Source of the DNA: a virus
Lineage: Duplodnaviria; Caudoviricetes
DNA: 36,865 bases
Strand: one strand, 5' to 3'
Virus record (IMG/VR): IMGVR_UViG_3300033406_000395
Span: 1-36,865 of that record
Position numbers and translations under genes: made by a program. This document shows, piece by piece, positions 1-36,865 of this stretch (position 1 is its first letter; each line of letters opens with the position of its first letter). The notes under the pieces are model-generated. The model had not been told where the DNA came from. It searched no databases and worked only from the letters and a program-made list of their open reading frames with translations.

Positions 1-960
1 GTGGGCAAAAAGATGATGGGATCACTAAAAAAACAAGGGCTTAAACTTTCTAAGGAGAGTAACGTATCCGATATTGTGGATGAGTTTATGCGATATAGCG
101 GGATACGAGGGCTGAGCAGTTTCACTTTAAAGAATTACCGAAATACGCTGCGGAAATTTTTTGCGGAGTACATCGGGGTGCTGAATGATCCGGTTGCATT
201 AAGACGGCATATTCTGGTTCTGTTGGCTGGCAGCGGAGATGAATACCACAACAAACGGCTTAGCGTCTATAGGCTGTTCTTCGATTTTTGTGTTGAGCGT
301 GGCCTGCTAGAAAAGAACCCAGCTGTCGGATTAAAGTTCCGGCGGCATACCGTTAGGGTTGTAGACCATGCCGATGAAACGATCCAGAAGCTGCTGCGAA
401 TTATTAATAAGGATACGTTTTCGGGGCTGAGGGATTATGCATTTGCTATTCTAATTTTGGATACCGGCATCAGACCGAGTGAGGCTCTGCAAGTAACGCC
501 GGACGACATTGATTTTGTCCGCAAGCGCATTCACGTGCGACCGGAAGTTTCTAAAACGCGCGAAGAACGGTTTTTGCCGATATCTGTGCAAGTAATACAC
601 ATTCTCGAGAAATTGATGCATATCCGGCCCGATGAATGGAGTGCGGATACTCCGGTATTGAGCACGTACGAAGGTGGGGAAATGCCGACCGCCGCCATAC
701 GAGATCGATTCAGACAGTACAGTTTGCGGACGGGGACAAGTGTGACCCCCTACCATTTAAGACATACTTTTGCCGTCAACTTCATCCGCAACGGCGGCGA
801 TCCATTTACATTACAGTACCTGATGGGCCACAAGAAGATGGAAATGACTAGAGTATATGTCCATTTGAATGAAAAGGATATTGCAGACAAACATGCGGCA
901 GCATCGCCGCTGCGAAACTATACGGGCGGCAAGCGAGTAGTAAACGTCAAGAAGAAATAA
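1..960 (+). CDS. Tyrosine recombinase / phage integrase
   Basis: Catalytic set DTGIRPSE (R), SKTR (K), HLRH, MGH, TRVY (Y); N-terminal core-binding domain. Confidence 0.95.
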   Translation: MGKKMMGSLKKQGLKLSKESNVSDIVDEFMRYSGIRGLSSFTLKNYRNTLRKFFAEYIGVLNDPVALRRHILVLLAGSGDEYHNKRLSVYRLFFDFCVERGLLEKNPAVGLKFRRHTVRVVDHADETIQKLLRIINKDTFSGLRDYAFAILILDTGIRPSEALQVTPDDIDFVRKRIHVRPEVSKTREERFLPISVQVIHILEKLMHIRPDEWSADTPVLSTYEGGEMPTAAIRDRFRQYSLRTGTSVTPYHLRHTFAVNFIRNGGDPFTLQYLMGHKKMEMTRVYVHLNEKDIADKHAAASPLRNYTGGKRVVNVKKK

Positions 961-967
961 TCGACTG

Positions 968-996
968 AGCAGGCAGAGATGCCTGCTTTATTTTTT
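968..996 (+). terminator. Rho-independent terminator after integrase
   Basis: AGCAGGCA-gaga-TGCCTGCT followed by T-rich tail. Confidence 0.85.
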
Positions 997-1022
997 ACCT
1001 TTTCGTATTCTTGTTGATATAG
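993..1022 (+). promoter_or_regulatory. Candidate phage-sigma late promoter, copy 1
   Basis: TTTTACC-N11-TTGTTGATATAG; same boxes and spacing at 7535 and 18079. Confidence 0.7.
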
Positions 1023-1154
1023 GTAAAGTATGGAGGGGCTACGGTGCTGTTAAACAAAAAATGAAACTGTCAGGCGACGGGCAAAAGAGGCGCGAAGCTA
1101 GTCGTAGCAAGGTTTATAACAGATCGTTATAACTAAAAAAGGAGATGCTTAACT

Positions 1155-1685
1155 ATGATTATTGCTATTAACCCCGGCCACTATGCTGGCTCTGAAAATT
1201 ATGATTCTGGTGCGGTGAATGAAGCGCTGGGGCTGCGAGAAGTCGACATCAATATCGCGGTCGCCCAAAAGCTGCAGACGATGCTGGAAGATGCCGGGTA
1301 CGAAACCATTTATATTCATGCCGGCGAATTGTACGAGATTACGGATGCATCCAATAATGCTGGCGCCGATTTGTTCGTTAGCATCCATTGTAACAGCGCA
1401 GGATCGTCACAGCCTGTCGGCACGGAAACGTTTTACTGTCAGGGAAGCTGCCATGGCCAATCGTTTGCTACGTGCATTCAGGAAGAAATGGTTAATCTCG
1501 GTTTGACCGACCGCGGCATCAAATGTAACGGGCTGTACGTGACCCGGCATACAGATGCGGTGGCCGTACTGGTCGAGTTAGGATTTTTGTCAAACATGGA
1601 TGAGGGCGCCTTACTGGGCACGGAAGATTTTCAACAAGCCGCCGCAGAAGCGATTTACAGAGGGGTTTGCCAGTATGTTGGATGA
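1155..1685 (+). CDS. N-acetylmuramoyl-L-alanine amidase (Amidase_3), catalytic domain only; probable endolysin
   Basis: INPGH...E, FVSIHCN, LVELGF zinc-amidase motifs; GGAG RBS. Confidence 0.92.
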   Translation: MIIAINPGHYAGSENYDSGAVNEALGLREVDINIAVAQKLQTMLEDAGYETIYIHAGELYEITDASNNAGADLFVSIHCNSAGSSQPVGTETFYCQGSCHGQSFATCIQEEMVNLGLTDRGIKCNGLYVTRHTDAVAVLVELGFLSNMDEGALLGTEDFQQAAAEAIYRGVCQYVG

Positions 1686-1758
1686 ATTCCTTATTGGCAG
1701 GCCTGCCGTTTCATACACGCAATCCTGTGAGGTGTGGCTGCGTGATAATATGATTGTA

Positions 1759-1791
1759 ACTCCTGACCGAAAAGGCCGGGAGTATTTTTTT
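1759..1791 (+). terminator. Rho-independent terminator after amidase
   Basis: ACTCCTGACC-gaaaa-GGCCGGGAGT plus T7. Confidence 0.75.
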
Positions 1792-1801
1792 CGGGGCGGG
1801 G

Positions 1802-1830
1802 TTGACAGATTTATTTTTGGGTGATACGAT
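1802..1830 (+). promoter_or_regulatory. SigmaA-type promoter with extended -10
   Basis: TTGACA-17 nt-TACGAT with TG at the extended -10 position; no credible RBS/ORF downstream. Confidence 0.75.
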
Positions 1831-1836
1831 AGTCAC

Positions 1837-2150
1837 CGTTGAACCGATTAGGCCGTGATGGCCTCCGATCGGCGGACAATTCACTGGCAACAGGATTAGC
1901 GATTAGAGCGTGATTTGCGGCTGAACCACCCGATGATAAGGGCTGGCGCGACCGTAATGCGCGGCGAAAGCTGAGCCGAAGCCGACAATGTAAACCGTGC
2001 TGAAAATGCAGCACCCACTTACGATAACGCAGGATGCCCATAGCGGCCCTGCACCAAGCAAAATGCATACAGATTCATTCTGGCCCCGAATAAGGGCGCC
2101 AGGGCGTCTCGTGTGTTGCTTGGATTATCGTGAGTGGGTGCTTTTTGCTT
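1837..2150 (+). ncRNA. Candidate structured non-coding RNA, family not recognised
   Basis: Own promoter; several hairpins with GNRA loops; 18-bp stem 2010-2027/2125-2142 followed by a U-tract. Confidence 0.55.
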
Positions 2151-2154
2151 TTGG

Positions 2155-2454
2155 CTATTTTAATGCTTTGACAATTTGTTGCGCTACGAATAATTGTTCG
2201 ATGGAGTCTTCAATAGTTTGTTGAAAGAAAGTCCGTAAGAAGTCGTTCAATGTGCTTTGGTCTTTTAGTTTTTCTGCACAATGATGGCAGATACTTAATG
2301 AACCGACTATATCGCCGCTGTCTTGATCTATTACATCAAGGACAGCCTCTCCCTTGTGATTTTCGCCACCAAAGACTTGATAGCATGCATAGTCTTCGAG
2401 ATCCATGTCTTGTGTGTCATCTGGTCCGTAACTTGTAGCGGTTGCTAGATTCAT
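2155..2454 (-). CDS. Small acidic hypothetical protein with CxxC
   Basis: AAGGAGG RBS, own promoter, CHHC motif. Confidence 0.75.
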   Translation of the reverse strand: MNLATATSYGPDDTQDMDLEDYACYQVFGGENHKGEAVLDVIDQDSGDIVGSLSICHHCAEKLKDQSTLNDFLRTFFQQTIEDSIEQLFVAQQIVKALK

Positions 2455-2480
2455 ATAAATTACCTCCTTTTTCTTAGTTT

Positions 2481-2509
2481 ATTGTAAGGGAATACAACGT
2501 CACTGTCTA
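2481..2509 (-). promoter_or_regulatory. SigmaA-type promoter for the 2155-2454 gene
   Basis: TAGACA-17 nt-TACAAT on the minus strand. Confidence 0.65.
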
Positions 2510-2942
2510 GATTGTCGTCGAATTTGGCGAATGGTTATCTAGTGTACGAGGCCCAATATCGGCCAGCTGCCCCTGCGGGCCAGCTAACCTCTGCATGAGG
2601 CCGATGCAGGGGATGAGTTGACATGGGGAACGGTATCCATTTTATCTGGCCGCCGCCTCGCTGGACTCGCGGATAAACACCATGCCTGCATTAGTTTTCG
2701 GGGTGGTTAGCTATTAAACGATAAATTCACCATTAACAGCTCAACACTTCTGCCCGAACTTCGACTGAAACATGGACGGCTGCACCCGCCATTACTCCAC
2801 CGGCTCGAATATCGATTAAACTTCTCCCGCGGCCCCGACCTGAACTGCGAACTCTTATCTTAAATGACTACTAAGAAGGATTATTCGCGGACATAACAGC
2901 AGAAACTCAGTAACTAAGCGGTATCAAGGCCATTTTTAACCC

Positions 2943-2988
2943 CTACTAAAAAGTAGATATCCGGTTATCTAAATCTACTAAAAAGTAG
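2943..2988. repeat. Two copies of palindromic 14-mer CTACTAAAAAGTAG, 32 bp apart
   Basis: Exact copies at 2943-2956 and 2975-2988. Confidence 0.85.
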
Positions 2989-3011
2989 GTGCATACTTCT
3001 TGAAAAAAGCA

Positions 3012-3060
3012 TTGACTTTGTGGGGCACAAAGTACTATAATAAGTTTGTGGGGTACGAAG
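3012..3060 (+). promoter_or_regulatory. SigmaA promoter with overlapping palindromic operator
   Basis: TTGACT-18-TATAAT; ACTTTGTG-ggg-CACAAAGT at 3015-3033 and degenerate copy at 3045-3060. Confidence 0.75.
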
Positions 3061-3078
3061 ATCGATGGAGGGGATAAC

Positions 3079-3261
3079 ATGGCACAAGGTAAGAAAGGCG
3101 CAGTCGAACAAGACATGATTATCAAATTTCGGATCAACAGCAAGCTGTATGCTGCGGCGCAGGAATTAGCCAAGCAACGAGGGACTAACTTCAGCAAAAT
3201 GGTCAGAGATTATCTGCAGGCAGAGATTGATGCGGCTGCTAAAAACACTCCAGATAAATAA
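3079..3261 (+). CDS. Ribbon-helix-helix (CopG/Arc-like) DNA-binding protein
   Basis: IIKFRI beta-strand, helix, GTNFSKMVRDYL; start moved to ATG 3079 after GGAGG. Confidence 0.75.
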   Translation: MAQGKKGAVEQDMIIKFRINSKLYAAAQELAKQRGTNFSKMVRDYLQAEIDAAAKNTPDK

Positions 3262-5310: not shown

Positions 5311-5406
5311 CCCGACGGGGCTCTCTGCTCTTGTTGACCACACTTTCAGCGGAGCCGCCAAAAAACTGAATATCACCACTTACGCTTAAGATAAAAATGA
5401 AAACCG

Positions 5407-5437
5407 AGGACATGGTTATGATACCGTGTCCTTTTTT
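5407..5437 (+). terminator. Rho-independent terminator
   Basis: AGGACATGGT-tatgat-ACCGTGTCCT plus T-tract. Confidence 0.75.
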
Positions 5438-5442
5438 ATTTT

Positions 5443-5484
5443 GTCCAACCGTTGGACTTTTTGAATTAGTCCAGAAGCTGGACT
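5443..5484. repeat. Two GTCCA-N5-TGGAC palindromes
   Basis: GTCCAACCGTTGGAC 5443-5457; AGTCCAGAAGCTGGACT 5468-5484. Confidence 0.8.
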
Positions 5485-7002: not shown

Positions 7003-7022
7003 CAAGCCGGAGGATGATAACC

Positions 7023-7532
7023 ATGTTAACAGCACAACAGCAAGATATGGCTGACCAACACTACCGATTCGCGATTTGGCTGGCCGCAAAATGGTCGAAA
7101 ATCCAAGATACAGTCCCGCGTGAAGAATTGGAGGGCATCGCCTTAATCGAATTGTGCAACGCTGCTGCAGCTTACGATCCAAGCCGCGGCAGCAGCTTTA
7201 CTCATTTTGCGAAGCATCATATCAATCAAATTCTGGCGCGCACAATTAAAGAGACACGGCGCCACAACCGAATCGAAGATCAGGCGGTCCGGAAAGAAGA
7301 AATGACTATCAAGCGTAAAAACGCCGAGTACAACGTCGAAAATAAAGCGCTCGGATCGGAGCTGCAAGATGCTCTTGATCAACTGTCGCCGGAACATCGC
7401 GAAATCCTTGAGGAATGTTATATCGACAAGCTAAGTTACAAAGAAATTGCCTTTAAGCACGGACTGACGGTTAACCAAGTCAAATTCATCTTGCGCTGCG
7501 CCAAACAGCAGGTGCGCCAGAAAATTGCATAG
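7023..7532 (+). CDS. Sigma-70 family RNA polymerase sigma factor (regions 2 and 4 only)
   Basis: YDPSRGSSFTHFA (region 2); LSPEHREIL...LSYKEIA (region 4 HTH). Confidence 0.9.
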   Translation: MLTAQQQDMADQHYRFAIWLAAKWSKIQDTVPREELEGIALIELCNAAAAYDPSRGSSFTHFAKHHINQILARTIKETRRHNRIEDQAVRKEEMTIKRKNAEYNVENKALGSELQDALDQLSPEHREILEECYIDKLSYKEIAFKHGLTVNQVKFILRCAKQQVRQKIA

Positions 7533-8059: not shown

Positions 8060-10618
8060 TTGATTATCGACTTAGCTGCGCCGCCCAAGATTCGGCGTGA
8101 ACCATACCTGGAGTACGAATTTGTCGCCGACTTAGACGATGGAGGCGCCAAAATACTGTTTAATGACCCCACGCTGTCGTACAACCATCTGGTAGCCCTA
8201 GAGATCGGAGATAAGCTATTACGCTTCCAATTGGTTGGGGCGCAGCCTACAACCACCATACCTGGCGACGATTACTTGATATATCCTTCGGTCCTTCCGA
8301 ATATCGATTTGTGCTATGACCTTTATGCCGGCCGCTTAAAAGAGACTTTGGTTATTAACAGCGCCCAGGCGCAGCACGAATTCAGCTTCGATCTCGAAAC
8401 CAACGGCGTGACGGCAAGCTTGCAGCCGGACAACTCGATTGTCTACAAGGACGCCGCGGATAATGTTGTTTGGACCATCAATGCGCCATTCTCCGTCGAT
8501 GCTAACGGAGCCACAGTCGAAACTTACCTGCAGTTTAGCGACGGCCAATACATTGTCGGCGTTTCTCCGGCAACTGACGCCGCTTACCCGATCAGGGTTG
8601 ATCCGACAGTGACGCTACCATCAGCCTATATCTGGAATGCGCAAGGCAATACTGTCACAGTCACGCTTGCCCCATATCGTTTAGCGGTCGGGCGCGCAGA
8701 TGGGTCACGACCAATCCCCTCTTTGACGGTTTATAACCAGCGCAAATATGGGTCGACCTATTACACCGCAACCAACACCACAAACGCATCTACCAAATAT
8801 CAATTTTTTGACAAGGATAACGTAGCGGTGTCCGAACAGTTTGATTTTGCAGTGGATTCTGTCACCTATATAGGTTCTATCTCTGTTCCGTCAAACGCCT
8901 ACACAATTGAATTTGTCGGCGTAGCAAACGGCAGTGCTTCATTCCCTGTTACCAATATCCTGCAACTAAAAACAGCTGAATGCGCCGCCAACGCATCCCA
9001 TTGGGATTTCACCCAAAAGGTGCTGCCGTATTACACGGATACAGCGGTCCACTACAGTGTCCCCAAAGCATCGTTCAACAGCTCCACTAGCGGACAAGCA
9101 GTATCGGAAACCTATGATGCGCCGTTTGGTACGACTTTTACGGCAGGGTCTATTTCCGTATCCAGCGAGAGATCTCCTTATAGCTACATCAAAGACTGCT
9201 ACGTTGACCTATATACCACCGATGGTACGCTATACGGCAGCACCAGTATTCCGTATCCATCAACAGCACCCGGCTCTGGCTATAATACCCGAGGAACGAC
9301 AGTGACAGTGCCGGCAGGCATTGCCCGAATCACTCTTCGCGGCACAAAGTACACGGCTAGCACAGCAATTTATTGGCCAACTGTATATTTTAACGTAGGG
9401 ACTTCCGTGCCGGAATATGGCACGGCCAAGTACGCATTAACGCTGACCAGCGATGTGCAAGACATTCCTATTTCGCCCGGATTCGTAAATTTGCATCCGG
9501 CCAATCCATTTAAAACCTACGTCTGTTATGGAGCCGATGTGCCGGGGAACTATGTTGAGTCATCTACAGTTACGGGCGTAACAGGGGCTGTCGCAAACAT
9601 AAAAGTCTCTCTAACAGCAAATGAAACCGCGCGGCCAACAACTGCGATTAGCAACATCTGTTTGGCTTCGTCGCCTTATACCTCCGCCAATCTCACCGTC
9701 GATTCCAAGCGCTGCATAGCCCAAACCATTAATCTTAACAGCGACACAGTCCGGTCTCTTTTGGCTTCGGCAAATTCCCAAGCCGATACTTCCCGCAGCA
9801 CCGTTTCTGGCCAAACAGCCTATGCAGACAGCATGAGACAAACCCTAGCTGACACTACCGCTTTTGCCGACACCAAACGCCAAGTGTCCTTACTTCATTC
9901 AGCAAATGCGCTTATAGACGCCCTGCGCAAAGTTATTAAAAGTTCGGAACTCATAACGGACACGAAACGGGCGACCGCAAAATATGACTCCGTGACTTCC
10001 GATACTCTGCGCAAAACATTAGCAGCTGTCGCCAACCAGTTTGATATTTCGAGGAATACATTGGCTGCCATTATTTTGTTTACTGACGCAAAAAGGTCGC
10101 TGGCCAAATCCGTTCTTGCTGCAGCCGATACCGCACGCGGATTATCCATTTCAGTTCTCGTCAACGCCGACACGAAGCGCGGCATCGGCGTAGCTTTATC
10201 CGGGTTAGTCACCGTGGATACCGTTCGCGCCGTAATCAAAAACATTTCCGGCAATTATGACAGCACCCGGCGCATTGCAGCGTTCCGCTCAGCTTCGGCA
10301 GATACCAAGAGGCGATTGGCCGCTCCAAATATCAGCACAAGCGATCTCACGCGTCGCATTGGAACCGCAGCACAAACAAACGCAGATACCGGCCGCAAAA
10401 TAAATGCCGTAGTTATCAATCGTTTCGATTCTTCACGCAAACTGAAAGGCGTTGTCCATGCTGTTTATGATACGAAACGGGTATTCGGCACCCCTCTTAT
10501 CCTCATATTCGATACGAAGCGCACAATCAAAAGCGGCATCTGGCCATATATCAAGAGGCACGAATTAAATATCCAAATCCAAAACCGGCGCATAACAATC
10601 TTGTCATTTACAGACTAA
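8060..10618 (+). CDS. Large modular protein: WapA/RHS-type N-terminal-like domain, beta modules, about 20 DxxR repeats
   Basis: GRLKE...WTINAP..DANG...YPIRVDPTV; 14-aa periodic D-T-x-R repeats; TTG start with GGAGGTG. Confidence 0.7.
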   Translation: MIIDLAAPPKIRREPYLEYEFVADLDDGGAKILFNDPTLSYNHLVALEIGDKLLRFQLVGAQPTTTIPGDDYLIYPSVLPNIDLCYDLYAGRLKETLVINSAQAQHEFSFDLETNGVTASLQPDNSIVYKDAADNVVWTINAPFSVDANGATVETYLQFSDGQYIVGVSPATDAAYPIRVDPTVTLPSAYIWNAQGNTVTVTLAPYRLAVGRADGSRPIPSLTVYNQRKYGSTYYTATNTTNASTKYQFFDKDNVAVSEQFDFAVDSVTYIGSISVPSNAYTIEFVGVANGSASFPVTNILQLKTAECAANASHWDFTQKVLPYYTDTAVHYSVPKASFNSSTSGQAVSETYDAPFGTTFTAGSISVSSERSPYSYIKDCYVDLYTTDGTLYGSTSIPYPSTAPGSGYNTRGTTVTVPAGIARITLRGTKYTASTAIYWPTVYFNVGTSVPEYGTAKYALTLTSDVQDIPISPGFVNLHPANPFKTYVCYGADVPGNYVESSTVTGVTGAVANIKVSLTANETARPTTAISNICLASSPYTSANLTVDSKRCIAQTINLNSDTVRSLLASANSQADTSRSTVSGQTAYADSMRQTLADTTAFADTKRQVSLLHSANALIDALRKVIKSSELITDTKRATAKYDSVTSDTLRKTLAAVANQFDISRNTLAAIILFTDAKRSLAKSVLAAADTARGLSISVLVNADTKRGIGVALSGLVTVDTVRAVIKNISGNYDSTRRIAAFRSASADTKRRLAAPNISTSDLTRRIGTAAQTNADTGRKINAVVINRFDSSRKLKGVVHAVYDTKRVFGTPLILIFDTKRTIKSGIWPYIKRHELNIQIQNRRITILSFTD

Positions 10619-10633
10619 CCAGGAGGTGACACC

Positions 10634-13084
10634 ATGGCCTATATCGATTTTACTGAGAACTGCGCCATCCGGCGCGAACAATACGACCAATACGAGTTTC
10701 AAGCTGAACTCGGCGGCACCCTGGTACTGCTAAATGACAGCGCCGAAACCTATAACCATTTGGCCGCAATTAAAGTCGGGGACAAACTGCTCCGCTTCAC
10801 GTTGGCTGAAGCAGCCCCGACCGGCACTATTCTCTTTAACGATAATATTTGCTACCAGGATGTGTTCCCGGACGTTAGCCTTTACTACACGACCGAACCG
10901 GGGCGCTTAAAAGAATATTTTTTGATTAATAGCCAAGACTGCCGGCAATCCTTCACTTTCCTTTTGGAACAAGAAGGCACCACAGCTACCCTAAAGGCAG
11001 ACAACAGCATCGAGTTCCGTGATGCGGCTGACAATCTCGTTTGGACAATCGATGCGCCAACCGCAACGGATGCGGCCGGAAAAGATGTGCCGACCACTAT
11101 AGCTTTTAATGGATCAAGTTATACCATCGGAATTACTCCGGACGCCAATACCCAATTCCCGGTTTGTTTGGATCCGACCGTTAATGTATCTAATACCGTT
11201 ACGGCATGGTATCAAGGCCTCACGTATTCCACTGTCAATCTTGGGCCGAAACGGTATCAAGTGGGGCGCTTGGGATATACCGAACTCCTTACCAGCGTTG
11301 AGTTATTTAGCAACCGCCAATGGAAAGACATAGCCACAGCCGTCACCACAACTGTCTATGACAACAGTAGCCCTTACGTCAAAACATGGTATCAGTGGTA
11401 TGACAAAAATAATGTTCCGCTTGCAGAAAAGGCCGATCTGGTGGTATCAAGTTCGACCAGAAAAGTTTTGCTGACCGTTCCGGCCGATGCTTACTGGCTG
11501 GAACTGACCGGCCAAGTTGCCGGTGTTGCCAGCACGATTCAGGCCTATAGCCAAACCTACCTTAATAGCCTGAATTACGATGATACAAAAACAAGCCAGT
11601 GGGAAATGGGCGACAACGTTAACTTTCCAGGTGGCCAGCGATCGTCGTCTATGAAATCTCACTTAGGTCCAATCCCGGCATCGGCAGACGGGACGCCTTT
11701 TACCCGCACCGTTTATGCTTACCCAGGACAATCATTTTATGCCGGGACGATATATATTTACGCTTATCGGGATTCGAACGGCTATATCGGCGACGCAACA
11801 ATAAACGCATACAATGCTGCAGGAACTCTATTGTCGTCAGTGGCGGTCGATACCAGTACAAACGGGAAAAGCACCAGTTTCCCCGTTCCCGCCAGTACAG
11901 CTCGCATCGAGGCGTCCGGAACGTTCCGGTCTTTAACAGCCAACGCCAGTACGGCTTACATCGCATATAATCTGTTTTACTTGACGTCCCCATCTACAAC
12001 GACCGTGCTTGTATTTCAAGCCGCAAGAGATTATTCTGGCGCCCGCTATGCGCCGGAGTTATCACCTGATATGGGCATTACGCCGCGATGTTTCGTTTCC
12101 ATTAACAGCCAGACTGATTATGTCGAAACAAACAAAATTACCGCCAGCAAAGGCGATATGGTTTACATCAAACTTATGCGCCAATCCGGCGATGCGACTT
12201 CATATAAACTTCAATCAACTTGTCTTGTTTTGATCCCCGAATACTTTGAAGCCCTTATGAATGGCGACCTTGTCCGTAAACTCATATCATCTACAGCCAG
12301 CCTTGCCGACACAAACAGAAGGGCCGCGTGCAATGCTCTGACTAATGGTGATACTCTGCGCCAATCTGTCCGCGCTTTTATCATTAACAGCGATACCATT
12401 CGGCGCGTAACCAAAGGAGTACTCCAGGTTATCCCCGCCGATACGGCTCGGAAAATCACCAAACGTATTGCCGCTTATGCCGACACCAAACGTAAGGCGG
12501 CCGCAAATAATAACTTTGTTTCCGATACCAAACGGCGTATCAAAGCCGCCGTTAATACGCTTAGTGATTCCATCCGTTCTGTCTGCGCCAATACCCTAAG
12601 TTATTTTGATTCCAAGCGGATCGTCGCCATAGCCACATGGGAGTACCAAAAAGACTGCTCCATTCAAATCGACATCGAAGGCGACTCCCAAACAATGTCT
12701 CTTAACCAATCCATAAATGTCAGCGCAATTTTATCGCCATTTAAAAGCGACCAACTAACTACAGGAGGTGGCCCATTCATGCTTATCCAAGGTACCCACG
12801 CGGTCATCAACATCAACGTGTTCCAAACAGCCGAAGAAGCTTTCGATTTGACCGATTGCGCCGTAAAACTCATCATCACGGCAGCTGACACGAAAGCGAA
12901 TTTCCTTGTTCCGGCCGCAATCTTAAACCCGATCGAAGGCAGAGCCTGCGCATACCTTGCACCGGAACACCTGCCAACAGGCGGCATGTACGAATACCAA
13001 GTCCAGGTCATCTTCCCCGACGGAACAGTATCCAAAACAGCAATCAGCGCCTTTTACGTCGCGGACTCGCTGCAGACTGCATAA
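10634..13084 (+). CDS. Paralogous modular protein with 9 DxxR repeats and C-terminal BppU-like adaptor domain
   Basis: N-terminal ~185 aa align with the 8060 protein; C-terminal FDLTDCAVKL...G.Y.YQVQVIFPDG. Confidence 0.7.
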   Translation: MAYIDFTENCAIRREQYDQYEFQAELGGTLVLLNDSAETYNHLAAIKVGDKLLRFTLAEAAPTGTILFNDNICYQDVFPDVSLYYTTEPGRLKEYFLINSQDCRQSFTFLLEQEGTTATLKADNSIEFRDAADNLVWTIDAPTATDAAGKDVPTTIAFNGSSYTIGITPDANTQFPVCLDPTVNVSNTVTAWYQGLTYSTVNLGPKRYQVGRLGYTELLTSVELFSNRQWKDIATAVTTTVYDNSSPYVKTWYQWYDKNNVPLAEKADLVVSSSTRKVLLTVPADAYWLELTGQVAGVASTIQAYSQTYLNSLNYDDTKTSQWEMGDNVNFPGGQRSSSMKSHLGPIPASADGTPFTRTVYAYPGQSFYAGTIYIYAYRDSNGYIGDATINAYNAAGTLLSSVAVDTSTNGKSTSFPVPASTARIEASGTFRSLTANASTAYIAYNLFYLTSPSTTTVLVFQAARDYSGARYAPELSPDMGITPRCFVSINSQTDYVETNKITASKGDMVYIKLMRQSGDATSYKLQSTCLVLIPEYFEALMNGDLVRKLISSTASLADTNRRAACNALTNGDTLRQSVRAFIINSDTIRRVTKGVLQVIPADTARKITKRIAAYADTKRKAAANNNFVSDTKRRIKAAVNTLSDSIRSVCANTLSYFDSKRIVAIATWEYQKDCSIQIDIEGDSQTMSLNQSINVSAILSPFKSDQLTTGGGPFMLIQGTHAVININVFQTAEEAFDLTDCAVKLIITAADTKANFLVPAAILNPIEGRACAYLAPEHLPTGGMYEYQVQVIFPDGTVSKTAISAFYVADSLQTA

Positions 13085-16518: not shown

Positions 16519-17088
16519 TTATCTTTCGTCCATTGCCCTGCGAAGCGAGTCAATGAAGTCATCATCGTCTTCTTCCTCTGGAGAGATAACCAGTGGTGCA
16601 CTATTAGCAGGTGTTCGGCGTGCCGGACTAGCCGGAGCAGTTGGAACAGGGGGCGACACGGCTTCTGAATGAGATTCTCCTGATAGGTTAGTTCCCATTA
16701 TCAGTGATAGCATATGGTTTTGTATAGGCTGCCTCAAGGATTCGTAGGTAAGGCCAGTTGGAAGGGCAATAAGGTTGTTTTCTTCGAGAACGCGAATAGT
16801 GGCTTCGACTGCGGTCAATGCCCAACGCTGTGATTCTACATGGAGAGCCTGTATTCTATGCGAGATATCCTCCTCTCGTTGTGCTTGATCTTCTAGGATA
16901 GGCAGTATTGTCCGGTAACGCCTGGCGACTTCGCGCCAGCCATTGAACTCCTCTCCTCGTTCTAATTGGCGAACTTTTGTGTCACTTACATCCAAATACC
17001 TGGATACTAGACGTGTTGAGGCGTAGGTTCTTTCCTGTCTGCGTCGTTGTAAGTCGGCACCAATTTCTGCTATAGGTCTTGTTGCCAT
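16519..17088 (-). CDS. XRE-like HTH protein with Pro-rich linker and acidic C-terminus
   Basis: IGADLQRRR...VSRYLDVSDTKVRQLERG; AAGGTGG RBS; extended -10 TGnTATAAT at 17130-17138 (minus). Confidence 0.7.
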   Translation of the reverse strand: MATRPIAEIGADLQRRRQERTYASTRLVSRYLDVSDTKVRQLERGEEFNGWREVARRYRTILPILEDQAQREEDISHRIQALHVESQRWALTAVEATIRVLEENNLIALPTGLTYESLRQPIQNHMLSLIMGTNLSGESHSEAVSPPVPTAPASPARRTPANSAPLVISPEEEDDDDFIDSLRRAMDER

Positions 17089-34226: not shown

Positions 34227-34592
34227 ATGGGCATCTTCTTCGATACGTTTGTATTACAACTCATACTGGTAGCCTTCAGCGGATCGCTTTTGGGAGAGGC
34301 GGTCCGCGAGGTAAATAACAATACCCCCATTTCCTTCAGCCATTTCATTGTCGAATTTATGGCCGGGGGCTTCATGGCTTTGATGATCGCGATTGTATTG
34401 AAGGTGATGGTCATAAAAGACGAACCGGTTCTTATTTTACCGTTCACGGGTTTCTTAGCTTTTGCCGGCCGTAAGAAATCGGCTGCGTTGGTTGAACGAA
34501 TGTTAATGACGATGCTGTCTAAGGGAGGGGCTATTAATGATGACAAGCCAATTCTTACAGACGATAAAGCAGAGGGTACTAACTCTGAATAA
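34227..34592 (+). CDS. Holin-like membrane protein
   Basis: Three hydrophobic segments, charged C-terminus, position after tail genes. Confidence 0.62.
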   Translation: MGIFFDTFVLQLILVAFSGSLLGEAVREVNNNTPISFSHFIVEFMAGGFMALMIAIVLKVMVIKDEPVLILPFTGFLAFAGRKKSAALVERMLMTMLSKGGAINDDKPILTDDKAEGTNSE

Positions 34593-36214: not shown

Positions 36215-36247
36215 TGATGTTTTCAAAAAGCATTGGGGGTGGCTACT

Positions 36248-36865
36248 GTGCTTCCAGCACGAGTGAGTCAAAAGCCAATTATCCAATCAAATAAAAAGGC
36301 GTTGGTACTATCAGCAGCTACCACAGGAGACCTTCCCAAGTATTATAATGCAAGGGAAATGAAGATGATCCTGTGCGATGGGCTGCGTGACAAGCAATAC
36401 AACGCCTTTTTTTTATGCCTGTTCCTTTGGCGGACCGGTTGCCGCATTTCGGAAGCTTTGAATGTGACCGTCGCCGATCTTGATCTAACTAACAAAGTTG
36501 TGCGGGTTCACACATTGAAGCGTAAAGGCCATGTTCGCTTCATTCCGCTCCAAACGGAGTTTATCGGGGAGATTGCGATTTGGATTAACCAGCAGCGTTT
36601 GGGACGCGCTGACAAACTGTTCGACATCGATCGTAAGACTGGATACAACTGGGTAGCCTATGCCTGTAAAAACGCTTTTACCGGCGACGAAAGAAATCAT
36701 CCGCATACCTTCCGCCATAGCTTTGCTGTTAACTGTCTGACGCAAGGTGTACCGATCACAACAGTGCAGAATTGGCTCGGACATGCTGACCTGGGGAAGA
36801 CACTGATCTATACTCAGTTGGTAGCTGCGGATACTAGAGTATTTATGGATGGAATAAAATTTTAG
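36248..36865 (+). CDS. Short tyrosine recombinase (catalytic domain only; resolvase/invertase-like)
   Basis: WRTGCRISE, TLKR, HTFRH, LGH, TLIY; start 36233 or 36248. Confidence 0.93.
   Translation: MLPARVSQKPIIQSNKKALVLSAATTGDLPKYYNAREMKMILCDGLRDKQYNAFFLCLFLWRTGCRISEALNVTVADLDLTNKVVRVHTLKRKGHVRFIPLQTEFIGEIAIWINQQRLGRADKLFDIDRKTGYNWVAYACKNAFTGDERNHPHTFRHSFAVNCLTQGVPITTVQNWLGHADLGKTLIYTQLVAADTRVFMDGIKF

What the first reader, a model, noticed from the sequence alone, without database searches (positions are those of the whole stretch)
1802..2150. Candidate novel ~310-nt structured phage RNA with its own strong promoter
Seen: a near-consensus TTGACA-17-TGnTACGAT promoter with no credible RBS/ORF downstream. 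The 5' half has nested hairpins (CCGAU/AUCGG, AGGCC/GGCCU, CUG-GCAA-CAG, GGC-GAAA-GCU). The 3' half has an 18-bp stem (2010-2027/2125-2142, one G-U) closing a junction with GCAGG/CCUGC and CCAAGCAA/UUGCUUGG arms, then a U-tract. One sub-motif occurs twice: CCC-loop ending AUAA-GGG plus a bulged C (1926-1946 and 2081-2101). GUGCUG/CAGCAC (1997-2014) competes with the long stem, suggesting a switch. I do not recognise the family. Inference: a lysogen-expressed regulatory, antitoxin, protein-decoy or replication-control RNA.
Basis: partly seen in the sequence, partly recalled or inferred. Interest (0 to 1): 0.75.

Follow-up and report, generated by a model that had tools for sequence, protein, structure and literature searches.

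The report
New prophage noncoding RNA behind endolysin
A bacterial virus carries, right behind its cell-wall-lysis gene, a roughly 310-base protein-free stretch that is conserved in related elements, matches no catalogued RNA family, and likely makes a folded RNA that would bind a protein partner through two look-alike stem-loops.

Summary
The feature is real. The window is a provirus integrated at tRNA-Gly. A predicted RNA at about 1836-2147 lies between the endolysin's terminator-like hairpin and a convergent orphan gene, and has its own promoter-like site. It folds far better than shuffles (z -5.55), and its 3' domain is the most stable of 1837 140-nt tiles. Rfam gives no hit.

Homologue pieces were found only in raw public contigs: 8 of 8 runs laid, chosen as holders. 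One contig has the same endolysin-then-RNA order. Conservation stops at the U tract. Changes fall mostly in unpaired positions (7 of 27 against 7 of 106, p 0.008), and a stop codon breaks ORF 1997-2224. The competing hairpin is retained and masks the terminator base. The GGC-GAAA-GCU hairpin is not conserved, and the 5' fold is unresolved.

Transcription and function are untested. Best guess (0.4): a stand-alone, two-motif protein-binding RNA built like RCd22, but not a member of that family. It is a new, so far narrow, phage RNA family.

The parts
1..960 (+). Tyrosine integrase (context); tRNA-Gly(CCC) lies just left of the window in the parent contig
   Evidence: PF00589 E 5e-30; tRNA in L025, which is identical to the window here
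1155..1685 (+). Amidase_3 endolysin, the linked upstream gene
   Evidence: PF01520 E 2e-39, PHROG endolysin; same order and spacing in run X19 record 10
1759..1790 (+). Terminator-like hairpin plus U run that would end the endolysin transcript
   Evidence: fold -13.4 kcal/mol, z -0.66 so not unusual by itself; sequence; function inferred
1802..1830 (+). Sigma-70/sigma-A-type promoter-like site with extended -10
   Evidence: not visible in the homologue tables; activity untested
1836..2147 (+). Predicted non-coding RNA of about 310 nt (5' end inferred, give or take a few bases)
1838..1877 (+). 5' hairpin
   Evidence: predicted only; no homologue piece shown for it
1884..1893 (+). Possible GNRA tetraloop hairpin
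   Evidence: loop stays GNRA in the X1 loose end; absent from the RNA MFE
1896..1974 (+). 5' core with unresolved fold; candidate helices 1896-1900/1970-74, 1909-11/1964-66, 1918-22/1969-73
   Evidence: one two-sided change each for 1910/1965 (X1) and 1922/1969 (X4), read by hand; hand models are 14-20 kcal/mol less stable than the MFE
1926..1946 (+). Motif copy 1: CCA/UGG, bulged C, CCC/GGG, A-rich loop
   Evidence: pair probability 1.0; stem kept and loop varies in loose ends
1947..1963 (+). CGCG/CGCG hairpin with variable loop
   Evidence: X1 has 4 substitutions and 1 deletion in the loop, none listed in the stem; not in the MFE
1997..2014 (+). Competing hairpin that masks the last 5 bp of the long helix
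   Evidence: z -4.2; stem kept with G-C to G-U, loop changed; predicted to form first and be displaced at 2141-42
2010..2142 (+). 3' domain: 18-bp helix, three-way junction, short arm 2029-2052, long arm 2054-2123
   Evidence: z -8.33; best of 1837 tiles by 15 kcal/mol; change pattern
2081..2101 (+). Motif copy 2 at the tip of the long arm
   Evidence: loop and bulge vary, no stem change listed
2142..2147 (+). U tract where conservation ends; likely termination site
   Evidence: loose ends begin behind 2147 in X8, X19, X5, X17
2155..2454 (-). Convergent 99-aa orphan ORF with a strong SD; not part of the conserved unit
   Evidence: no family; only itself; itself plus one repetitive partial hit

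Best explanation
This is a conserved non-coding unit of a temperate phage that likely makes a stand-alone, folded RNA of about 310 bases, which would act in trans by binding a protein (as a decoy or antitoxin-like partner) through its two look-alike stem-loops. Shown: position, fold potential, conservation with a sharp 3' edge, no conserved reading frame, linkage to the endolysin gene in one relative. Inferred, step by step: (1) host sigma-A polymerase starts near 1836, so the RNA could be made in the lysogen, insulated from the endolysin mRNA by the hairpin at 1759-1790; (2) the hairpin 1997-2014 forms first and is displaced only as 2141-2142 emerge, when the 18-bp helix closes on the U tract and ends transcription by default; (3) the released RNA presents two CCC/GGG stems with an A-rich loop and a bulged pyrimidine as two binding sites; (4) the partner is a phage or host protein not identified here. 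That the unit is a real structured ncRNA gene is about 0.85-0.9 likely; the confidence given is for the protein-binding mechanism.
For: Fold statistics and strand preference. Homologue pieces in 8 of 8 runs laid, from 8 studies. Conservation ends at 2147, with four different flanks behind it (window, X19, X5/X8, X17). Changes are enriched in unpaired positions, 7 of 27 against 7 of 106, p 0.008 in both registers tried; 3 of the 7 paired-site changes keep the pair (2074, 2075, 2132). In the linked endolysin 13 of 18 listed differences are third-codon changes, so neutral divergence is substantial while 2010-2065 shows no listed change. The motif shape is kept while loop letters vary, and it occurs only in this RNA in 36.9 kb. 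No antisense target in the phage beyond chance (best 12 nt, E 0.54). Architectural precedent: RCd22 lies behind a prophage holin, has a sigma-A promoter, two motif copies and a leaky terminator, and binds AbiF (PMC12373285, abstract and sections 7 and 11).
Against: No expression data. No partner: no Abi, toxin or defence family among 21 window proteins scanned (one weak ZorB hit at E 0.003), and the neighbour behind the RNA varies. The repeat is only modestly beyond chance (13 of 300) and the second loop is not conserved in sequence. Four paired-site changes break pairs (2066 with 2115, 2116, 2126), and one G is inserted in the long helix. No two-sided change was seen in the 3' domain. Runs were found through shared 31-mers, so invariance of the core is partly built in. 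The difference tables are incomplete: 21 rows were hidden and changes near alignment ends are not listed. Homologues are all about 85% alike or closer, and endolysin linkage rests on one contig.
Confidence: 0.4

Rival explanations
1. A cis-acting attenuator or riboswitch-like leader: the 5' core senses a ligand or protein, stabilises the 1997-2014 hairpin and lets polymerase read through into a variable cargo gene, which this provirus has lost or replaced.
For: The hairpin masks exactly the 5 bp next to the U tract; the two folds differ by 3.8 kcal/mol; it forms first; its stem is kept in 7 of 7 runs that reach it. Loop 1933-39 can also pair with 2125-31 (7 bp, -6.8 kcal/mol). RCd22 works partly this way.
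Against: No co-oriented gene with an SD follows in the window; the next real-looking gene is convergent. In X5/X8 a second small hairpin follows the U tract (loose ends). The hairpin may instead be a folding intermediate or a minus-strand terminator for convergent transcription (listed as such). The loop complementarity may be chance.
Confidence: 0.2
2. An RNA-only scaffold or catalytic RNA, a small counterpart of ROOL, GOLLD or ARRPOF, with a pseudoknotted 5' core that self-assembles or reacts without protein.
For: Provirus context 2 kb from a tRNA; two multi-stem domains; a possible GNRA loop; the two helices with two-sided changes (1910/1965, 1922/1969) cross, as in a pseudoknot (read by hand). 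ROOL and GOLLD are phage RNAs that form RNA-only cages (10.1101/2024.12.08.627333, passages).
Against: Half the size of ROOL; no ribozyme or ornate-RNA model hits; each two-sided change rests on one low-depth contig; the hand models cost 14-20 kcal/mol against the MFE; the 5' third is under 80% alike in X19.
Confidence: 0.15
3. A base-pairing small RNA (trans sRNA or type I antitoxin) acting on host or phage mRNAs.
For: Own promoter and terminator; accessory slot behind the lysis gene; a convergent ORF ends 8 nt behind the U tract.
Against: No complementarity to the phage beyond chance. The convergent ORF is a 99-aa acidic orphan, not a small hydrophobic toxin, and is absent from the relatives' flanks. 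Single-stranded parts vary most. Host mRNAs could not be tested.
Confidence: 0.12
4. Not a functional transcript: stacked terminators and hairpins in a lysis-module spacer, kept by descent.
For: No RNA evidence; homologues are close and few; not found in any species genome searched.
Against: z -8.3 for the 3' domain; constraint pattern; stronger conservation than third positions of the linked gene; a sharp edge at the U tract with swapped flanks.
Confidence: 0.08
5. A replication element: a primer or copy-control RNA, or a single-stranded DNA structure, serving the RHH/RepL-like genes to the right.
For: It points towards a 570-nt gap with inverted repeats ahead of an RHH and a RepL-like gene. 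Some prophages use RNA-based origins (PMC7157519, abstract); ARRPOF and GEBRO sit in plasmid replication regions (PMC5737381, passages).
Against: The downstream flank is not conserved while the upstream endolysin is; an ORF lies between; the phage integrates at a tRNA; RNA parameters give the better z-score.
Confidence: 0.05

Closest known systems
RCd22 / abiF-motif RNA of the C. difficile phi027 prophage (PMC12373285; abstract and sections 7 and 11 read)
   Same: Prophage RNA right behind a lysis gene, sigma-A promoter, two copies of a hairpin motif, own intrinsic terminator with possible read-through.
   Different: About 310 nt against 98-132 nt; no abiF motif (RF03085) hit; no abiF gene or other co-oriented gene behind it in the window; much larger multi-junction fold; no partner known.
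ROOL and GOLLD RNAs (PMC5737381 and 10.1101/2024.12.08.627333; passages read)
   Same: Structured phage or prophage ncRNA of unknown function near a tRNA; multi-stem junctions.
   Different: About half the size or less; no model match; so far seen in one narrow group of elements; pseudoknots and oligomers untested.
ARRPOF and GEBRO plasmid motifs (PMC5737381; passages read)
   Same: Similar size class (223-349 nt given for the plasmid motifs); mobile-element context.
   Different: No Rfam match; linked to an endolysin rather than an origin; bounded by promoter-like and terminator-like signals.
Terminator/antiterminator leaders of Bacillota riboswitches and attenuators (recalled, not from a call)
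   Same: A hairpin that masks the terminator base next to the U tract.
   Different: The terminator helix closes a 97-nt junction domain; no regulated gene follows in the window; no aptamer model matches.

Membership tests
abiF-motif / RCd22 type III-like antitoxin | abiF motif (RF03085) | tested here: not met
   no Rfam hit at gathering score or at E up to 10
abiF-motif / RCd22 type III-like antitoxin | co-oriented abiF (Abi_2) gene directly downstream | tested here: not met
   convergent orphan ORF in the window; no Abi family hit; only 30 letters of the relatives' flanks were seen
abiF-motif / RCd22 type III-like antitoxin | own sigma-A promoter, two motif copies, terminator, position behind a lysis gene | tested here: met
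   as sequence features only
abiF-motif / RCd22 type III-like antitoxin | neutralises a toxin by direct RNA-protein binding | not testable with these tools
   needs pull-down and toxicity assay
ROOL / GOLLD | match to the covariance model; 580-800+ nt | tested here: not met
   unit is about 310 nt; sizes
ROOL / GOLLD | phage or prophage context near a tRNA | tested here: met
   provirus; tRNA-Gly about 2 kb away
ROOL / GOLLD | conserved pseudoknots | tested here: inconclusive
   two crossing helices with one two-sided change each; MFE disagrees
ROOL / GOLLD | RNA-only homo-oligomer | not testable with these tools
   needs mass photometry or cryo-EM
ARRPOF / GEBRO | match to the covariance model | tested here: not met
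   (that both are in Rfam 15 is recalled)
ARRPOF / GEBRO | lies in the replication region | tested here: inconclusive
   near a possible origin gap in the window, but that flank differs in relatives
Type I toxin-antitoxin antitoxin | conserved convergent or overlapping small hydrophobic toxin gene (recalled definition) | tested here: not met
   neighbour is a 99-aa acidic orphan; flanks differ; no conserved small ORF
Riboswitch / attenuator leader | mutually exclusive terminator and antiterminator folds | tested here: met
   predicted: 3.8 kcal/mol apart, ordered folding
Riboswitch / attenuator leader | regulated co-oriented gene downstream | tested here: not met
   none with an SD in the window; not determinable for relatives
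Riboswitch / attenuator leader | ligand-dependent read-through | not testable with these tools
   needs in vitro transcription and probing
Known self-cleaving ribozymes, introns, 6S, SRP, tmRNA, tRNA | match to Rfam or ARAGORN models | tested here: not met

The most novel reading that the evidence does not exclude
A new class of phage RNA device: a pseudoknotted 5' sensor coupled to a terminator whose helix closes a whole junction domain, so that one 310-nt molecule both binds its ligand or protein at two sites and decides its own 3' end, travelling with the endolysin gene as a lysis or lysogeny control module.
Probability: 0.15. Interest if true: 0.8.

Novelty: new variant of a known kind. 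Interest (0 to 1): 0.5.

Why it matters
Structured bacterial RNAs of 300 nt or more are rare, and the phage-borne ones (ROOL, GOLLD) still have no known function. This one is a new family with clear borders, a linked gene, a built-in alternative fold and a size that suits in vitro transcription, probing and cryo-EM. It would be directly testable for protein decoy activity, conditional termination or self-assembly. Its reach is limited so far: it was seen only in one narrow group of elements, and neither expression nor a partner is shown.

Tried and rejected
Families: no Rfam hit in the window at gathering score. Three sub-threshold hits at E 0.9-5.9 in 1600-3100 were rejected. No tRNA or tmRNA.

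Homologue searches that gave nothing:
- blastn in annotated phages and plasmids.
- Exact 21-mer in 185,579 species genomes, 0 hits.
- Metagenome 19-mer: only the window's own parent contig, L025.
- Four IMG/VR patterns: 1, 21, 0 and 1 hits, none extending beyond the pattern.
- BLAST of 10 + 40 + 401 genomes: 3 marginal hits at E about 1e-3, rejected on inspection.
- Single-sequence covariance models R1 and R2 (both built from two identical rows; the R2 structure was my hand model) over 77 sources: only the window, plus weak R2 hits, the best of which (L029, E 0.01) lies inside a coding gene. Loci L113-L142 were searched by nhmmer only.
- Model searches of 15, 151, 41, 40, 13 and 61 overlapping genomes: one hit inside a coding gene.
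- Hairpin pattern in 401 genomes: 3 hits, all in open frames.
These are samples: not found in those searched, not absent.

Expression: no RNA holder listed; X3 is labelled metatranscriptomic but flagged as probably DNA. This is no evidence either way.

Rejected readings: ORF 1997-2224 (stop in 7 of 7 covering runs); minus ORF 1811-2068 (start lost at 2066 in 7 of 7); the 19-aa ORF at 2034 (stop created at 2064-66); the GGC-GAAA-GCU hairpin; a riboswitch ahead of the amidase (z 0.0). The rest of the parent contig could not be fetched, so attR was not located.

Literature: seven searches gave no description of this RNA. In the Fremin 2023 phage RNA catalogue (PMC10690425; passages read) the motifs were not in the readable supplements, but its alignment archives could not be searched, so a short candidate matching part of this RNA is not excluded. 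10.64898/2026.07.01.735769: first part of five read, no match. Earlier scan findings: none for this sequence or genome; the word search listed unrelated RNAs.

Full report
Setting. The window is an IMG/VR provirus of 36,865 bases with a contractile-tail gene set. Its parent contig, L025, is identical over the region compared and has a tRNA-Gly just left of the integrase. The closest named relatives of the integrase are in Sporomusa, Sporomusaceae and Anaerosporomusa records at 41-52% identity, so a Negativicutes host is inferred. Gene order at the left end: integrase 1-960, amidase endolysin 1155-1685, a terminator-like hairpin 1759-1790, the candidate, a convergent orphan ORF 2155-2454, a 570-nt gap, then RHH and RepL-like genes.

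Observation. All named strings are present. The promoter-like site scores 10 of 12 with a TG extension. Loose matches are at chance level in 5 kb (8 against 8.2), but the strict pattern occurs once in the window and in 1 of 100 shuffles (written after the fact). The RNA fold has z -5.55, against -3.14 for the reverse strand and -3.48 with DNA parameters. Most of the signal is the 3' domain: z -8.33, and the best of 1837 tiles of 140 nt by 15 kcal/mol. The 5' half alone is weak (z about -1.7). Rfam and ARAGORN find nothing credible.

Homologues. Searches of species genomes, IMG/VR, JGI contigs, annotated phages and plasmids gave only the window's own contig or chance hits (see Tried and rejected). 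The word index listed 24 runs with a share of 0.06. I laid 8 of them, from 8 studies; all 8 hold pieces of the RNA, together covering 1918-2147. They were selected for sharing words, so this is no measure of prevalence. One 4,047-nt contig (X19 record 10) carries the endolysin and then the RNA, with 321 letters where the window has 324. The stretch 1610-1935 did not align at 80%, so the promoter and 5' hairpin are untested. Alignment stops at 2147 in X8, X19, X5 and X17, and the letters behind fall into four types, counting the window. A subfamily of 19 endolysins at 60-80% identity exists, mostly on short contigs; their DNA could not be fetched.

Non-coding. Positions 2006-2008 read as an in-frame stop for ORF 1997-2224 in 7 of 7 runs that reach them. 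The change at 2066 removes the start of the minus-strand ORF 1811-2068 in 7 of 7. No small ORF has a good SD.

Structure under selection. In the 3' domain I counted 14 changed positions from the tables and loose ends: 7 of 27 unpaired against 7 of 106 paired, Fisher p 0.008, the same in the MFE register and in my adjusted one. Of the paired ones, three keep the pair (2074, 2075: U-G to C-G; 2132: U-G to U-A). Four break pairs at helix ends (2066 with 2115, 2116, 2126), a bulged base at 2110 is deleted, and one G is inserted in the long helix in X17 and X21. No two-sided change was seen there. The tables hide some rows, so the count is incomplete. In the linked endolysin 13 of 18 listed differences are third-position, while 2010-2065 shows none listed; part of that invariance follows from how the runs were found.

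The 5' half. Motif copy 1 is firm (probability 1.0). The CGCG stem keeps its letters while its loop changes at five places in X1. Two candidate helices each show one two-sided change (1910/1965 G-C to A-U in X1; 1922/1969 U-A to C-G in X4), and they cross, which would be a pseudoknot. But 1972 U to C in X19 favours one and may break a third helix, each case rests on one low-depth contig, and the nested hand models are 14-20 kcal/mol less stable than the MFE. The 5' fold is unresolved.

The repeated motif. It occurs twice in 36.9 kb, both times here, but a generic repeat test gives 13 of 300. Stems and the bulged pyrimidine are kept; the second loop loses 'AUAA'. What is conserved is shape more than letters.

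The competing hairpin. The stem 1997-2001/2010-2014 is kept in 7 of 7 covering runs while the loop changes. It masks the 5 bp next to the U tract. The two folds differ by 3.8 kcal/mol, and the hairpin is predicted to persist until 2141-2142 are made. This is antiterminator geometry, with termination as the default. It could equally be a folding intermediate or a terminator for convergent transcription. No co-oriented gene follows in the window.

Mechanism. I commit to a stand-alone RNA that binds a protein through its two motif copies (0.4). The reasons are the promoter-to-terminator unit with swappable downstream flank, shape-conserved twin stem-loops, no antisense target in the phage, and the RCd22 precedent. 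Against it: no partner was found and no expression is shown. Rivals are an attenuator leader (0.2), an RNA-only scaffold or ribozyme (0.15), a base-pairing sRNA (0.12), no function (0.08) and a replication element (0.05).

Comparison and novelty. It is built like RCd22 but lacks the abiF motif and gene, so it is not a member. It shares context with ROOL and GOLLD but not size or model. Seven literature searches found no description; the alignment archives of the 2023 phage RNA catalogue could not be searched. I rate it a new family within a known broad kind, structured phage ncRNAs. Interest is 0.5: well supported as a sequence entity and easy to test, but narrow in known range and unproven in function.

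Noticed in passing
window 1-1685 and 34227-34592: The endolysin sits behind the integrase at the left end, far from the holin at the right end. Equal longest-contig lengths (5650 and 1875 nt) for integrase and endolysin homologues hint at the same adjacency elsewhere; not verified.
   Followed up: partly
window 36233-36865: A second, short (210 aa) tyrosine recombinase at the right end; role and attR unknown.
   Followed up: no
window 8060-13084: Two large paralogous ORFs (852 and 816 aa, 32% identical over 730 aa) just ahead of the terminase, with no confident family and repeated D-T-K/R-R motifs in the C-terminal third.
   Followed up: partly
window 2470-3040: A 570-nt gap with little coding potential, an inverted pair at 2942-2989 and a repeated 16-nt site over the strong promoter-like site at 3012-3041, ahead of RHH and RepL-like genes: likely origin and operator region.
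   Followed up: partly
window 5311-5450: Intergenic stretch with a long terminator-like hairpin, z -4.0.
   Followed up: partly
window 1112-1132: Inverted repeat just ahead of the endolysin's SD, possibly an operator; the leader itself does not fold better than shuffles.
   Followed up: partly
window 7014-7532: Phage-encoded sigma-70 family factor, a candidate partner to include in pull-downs.
   Followed up: no
window 16519-17088: A minus-strand 189-aa ORF without a confident family between portal and scaffold genes, possibly an accessory gene.
   Followed up: no
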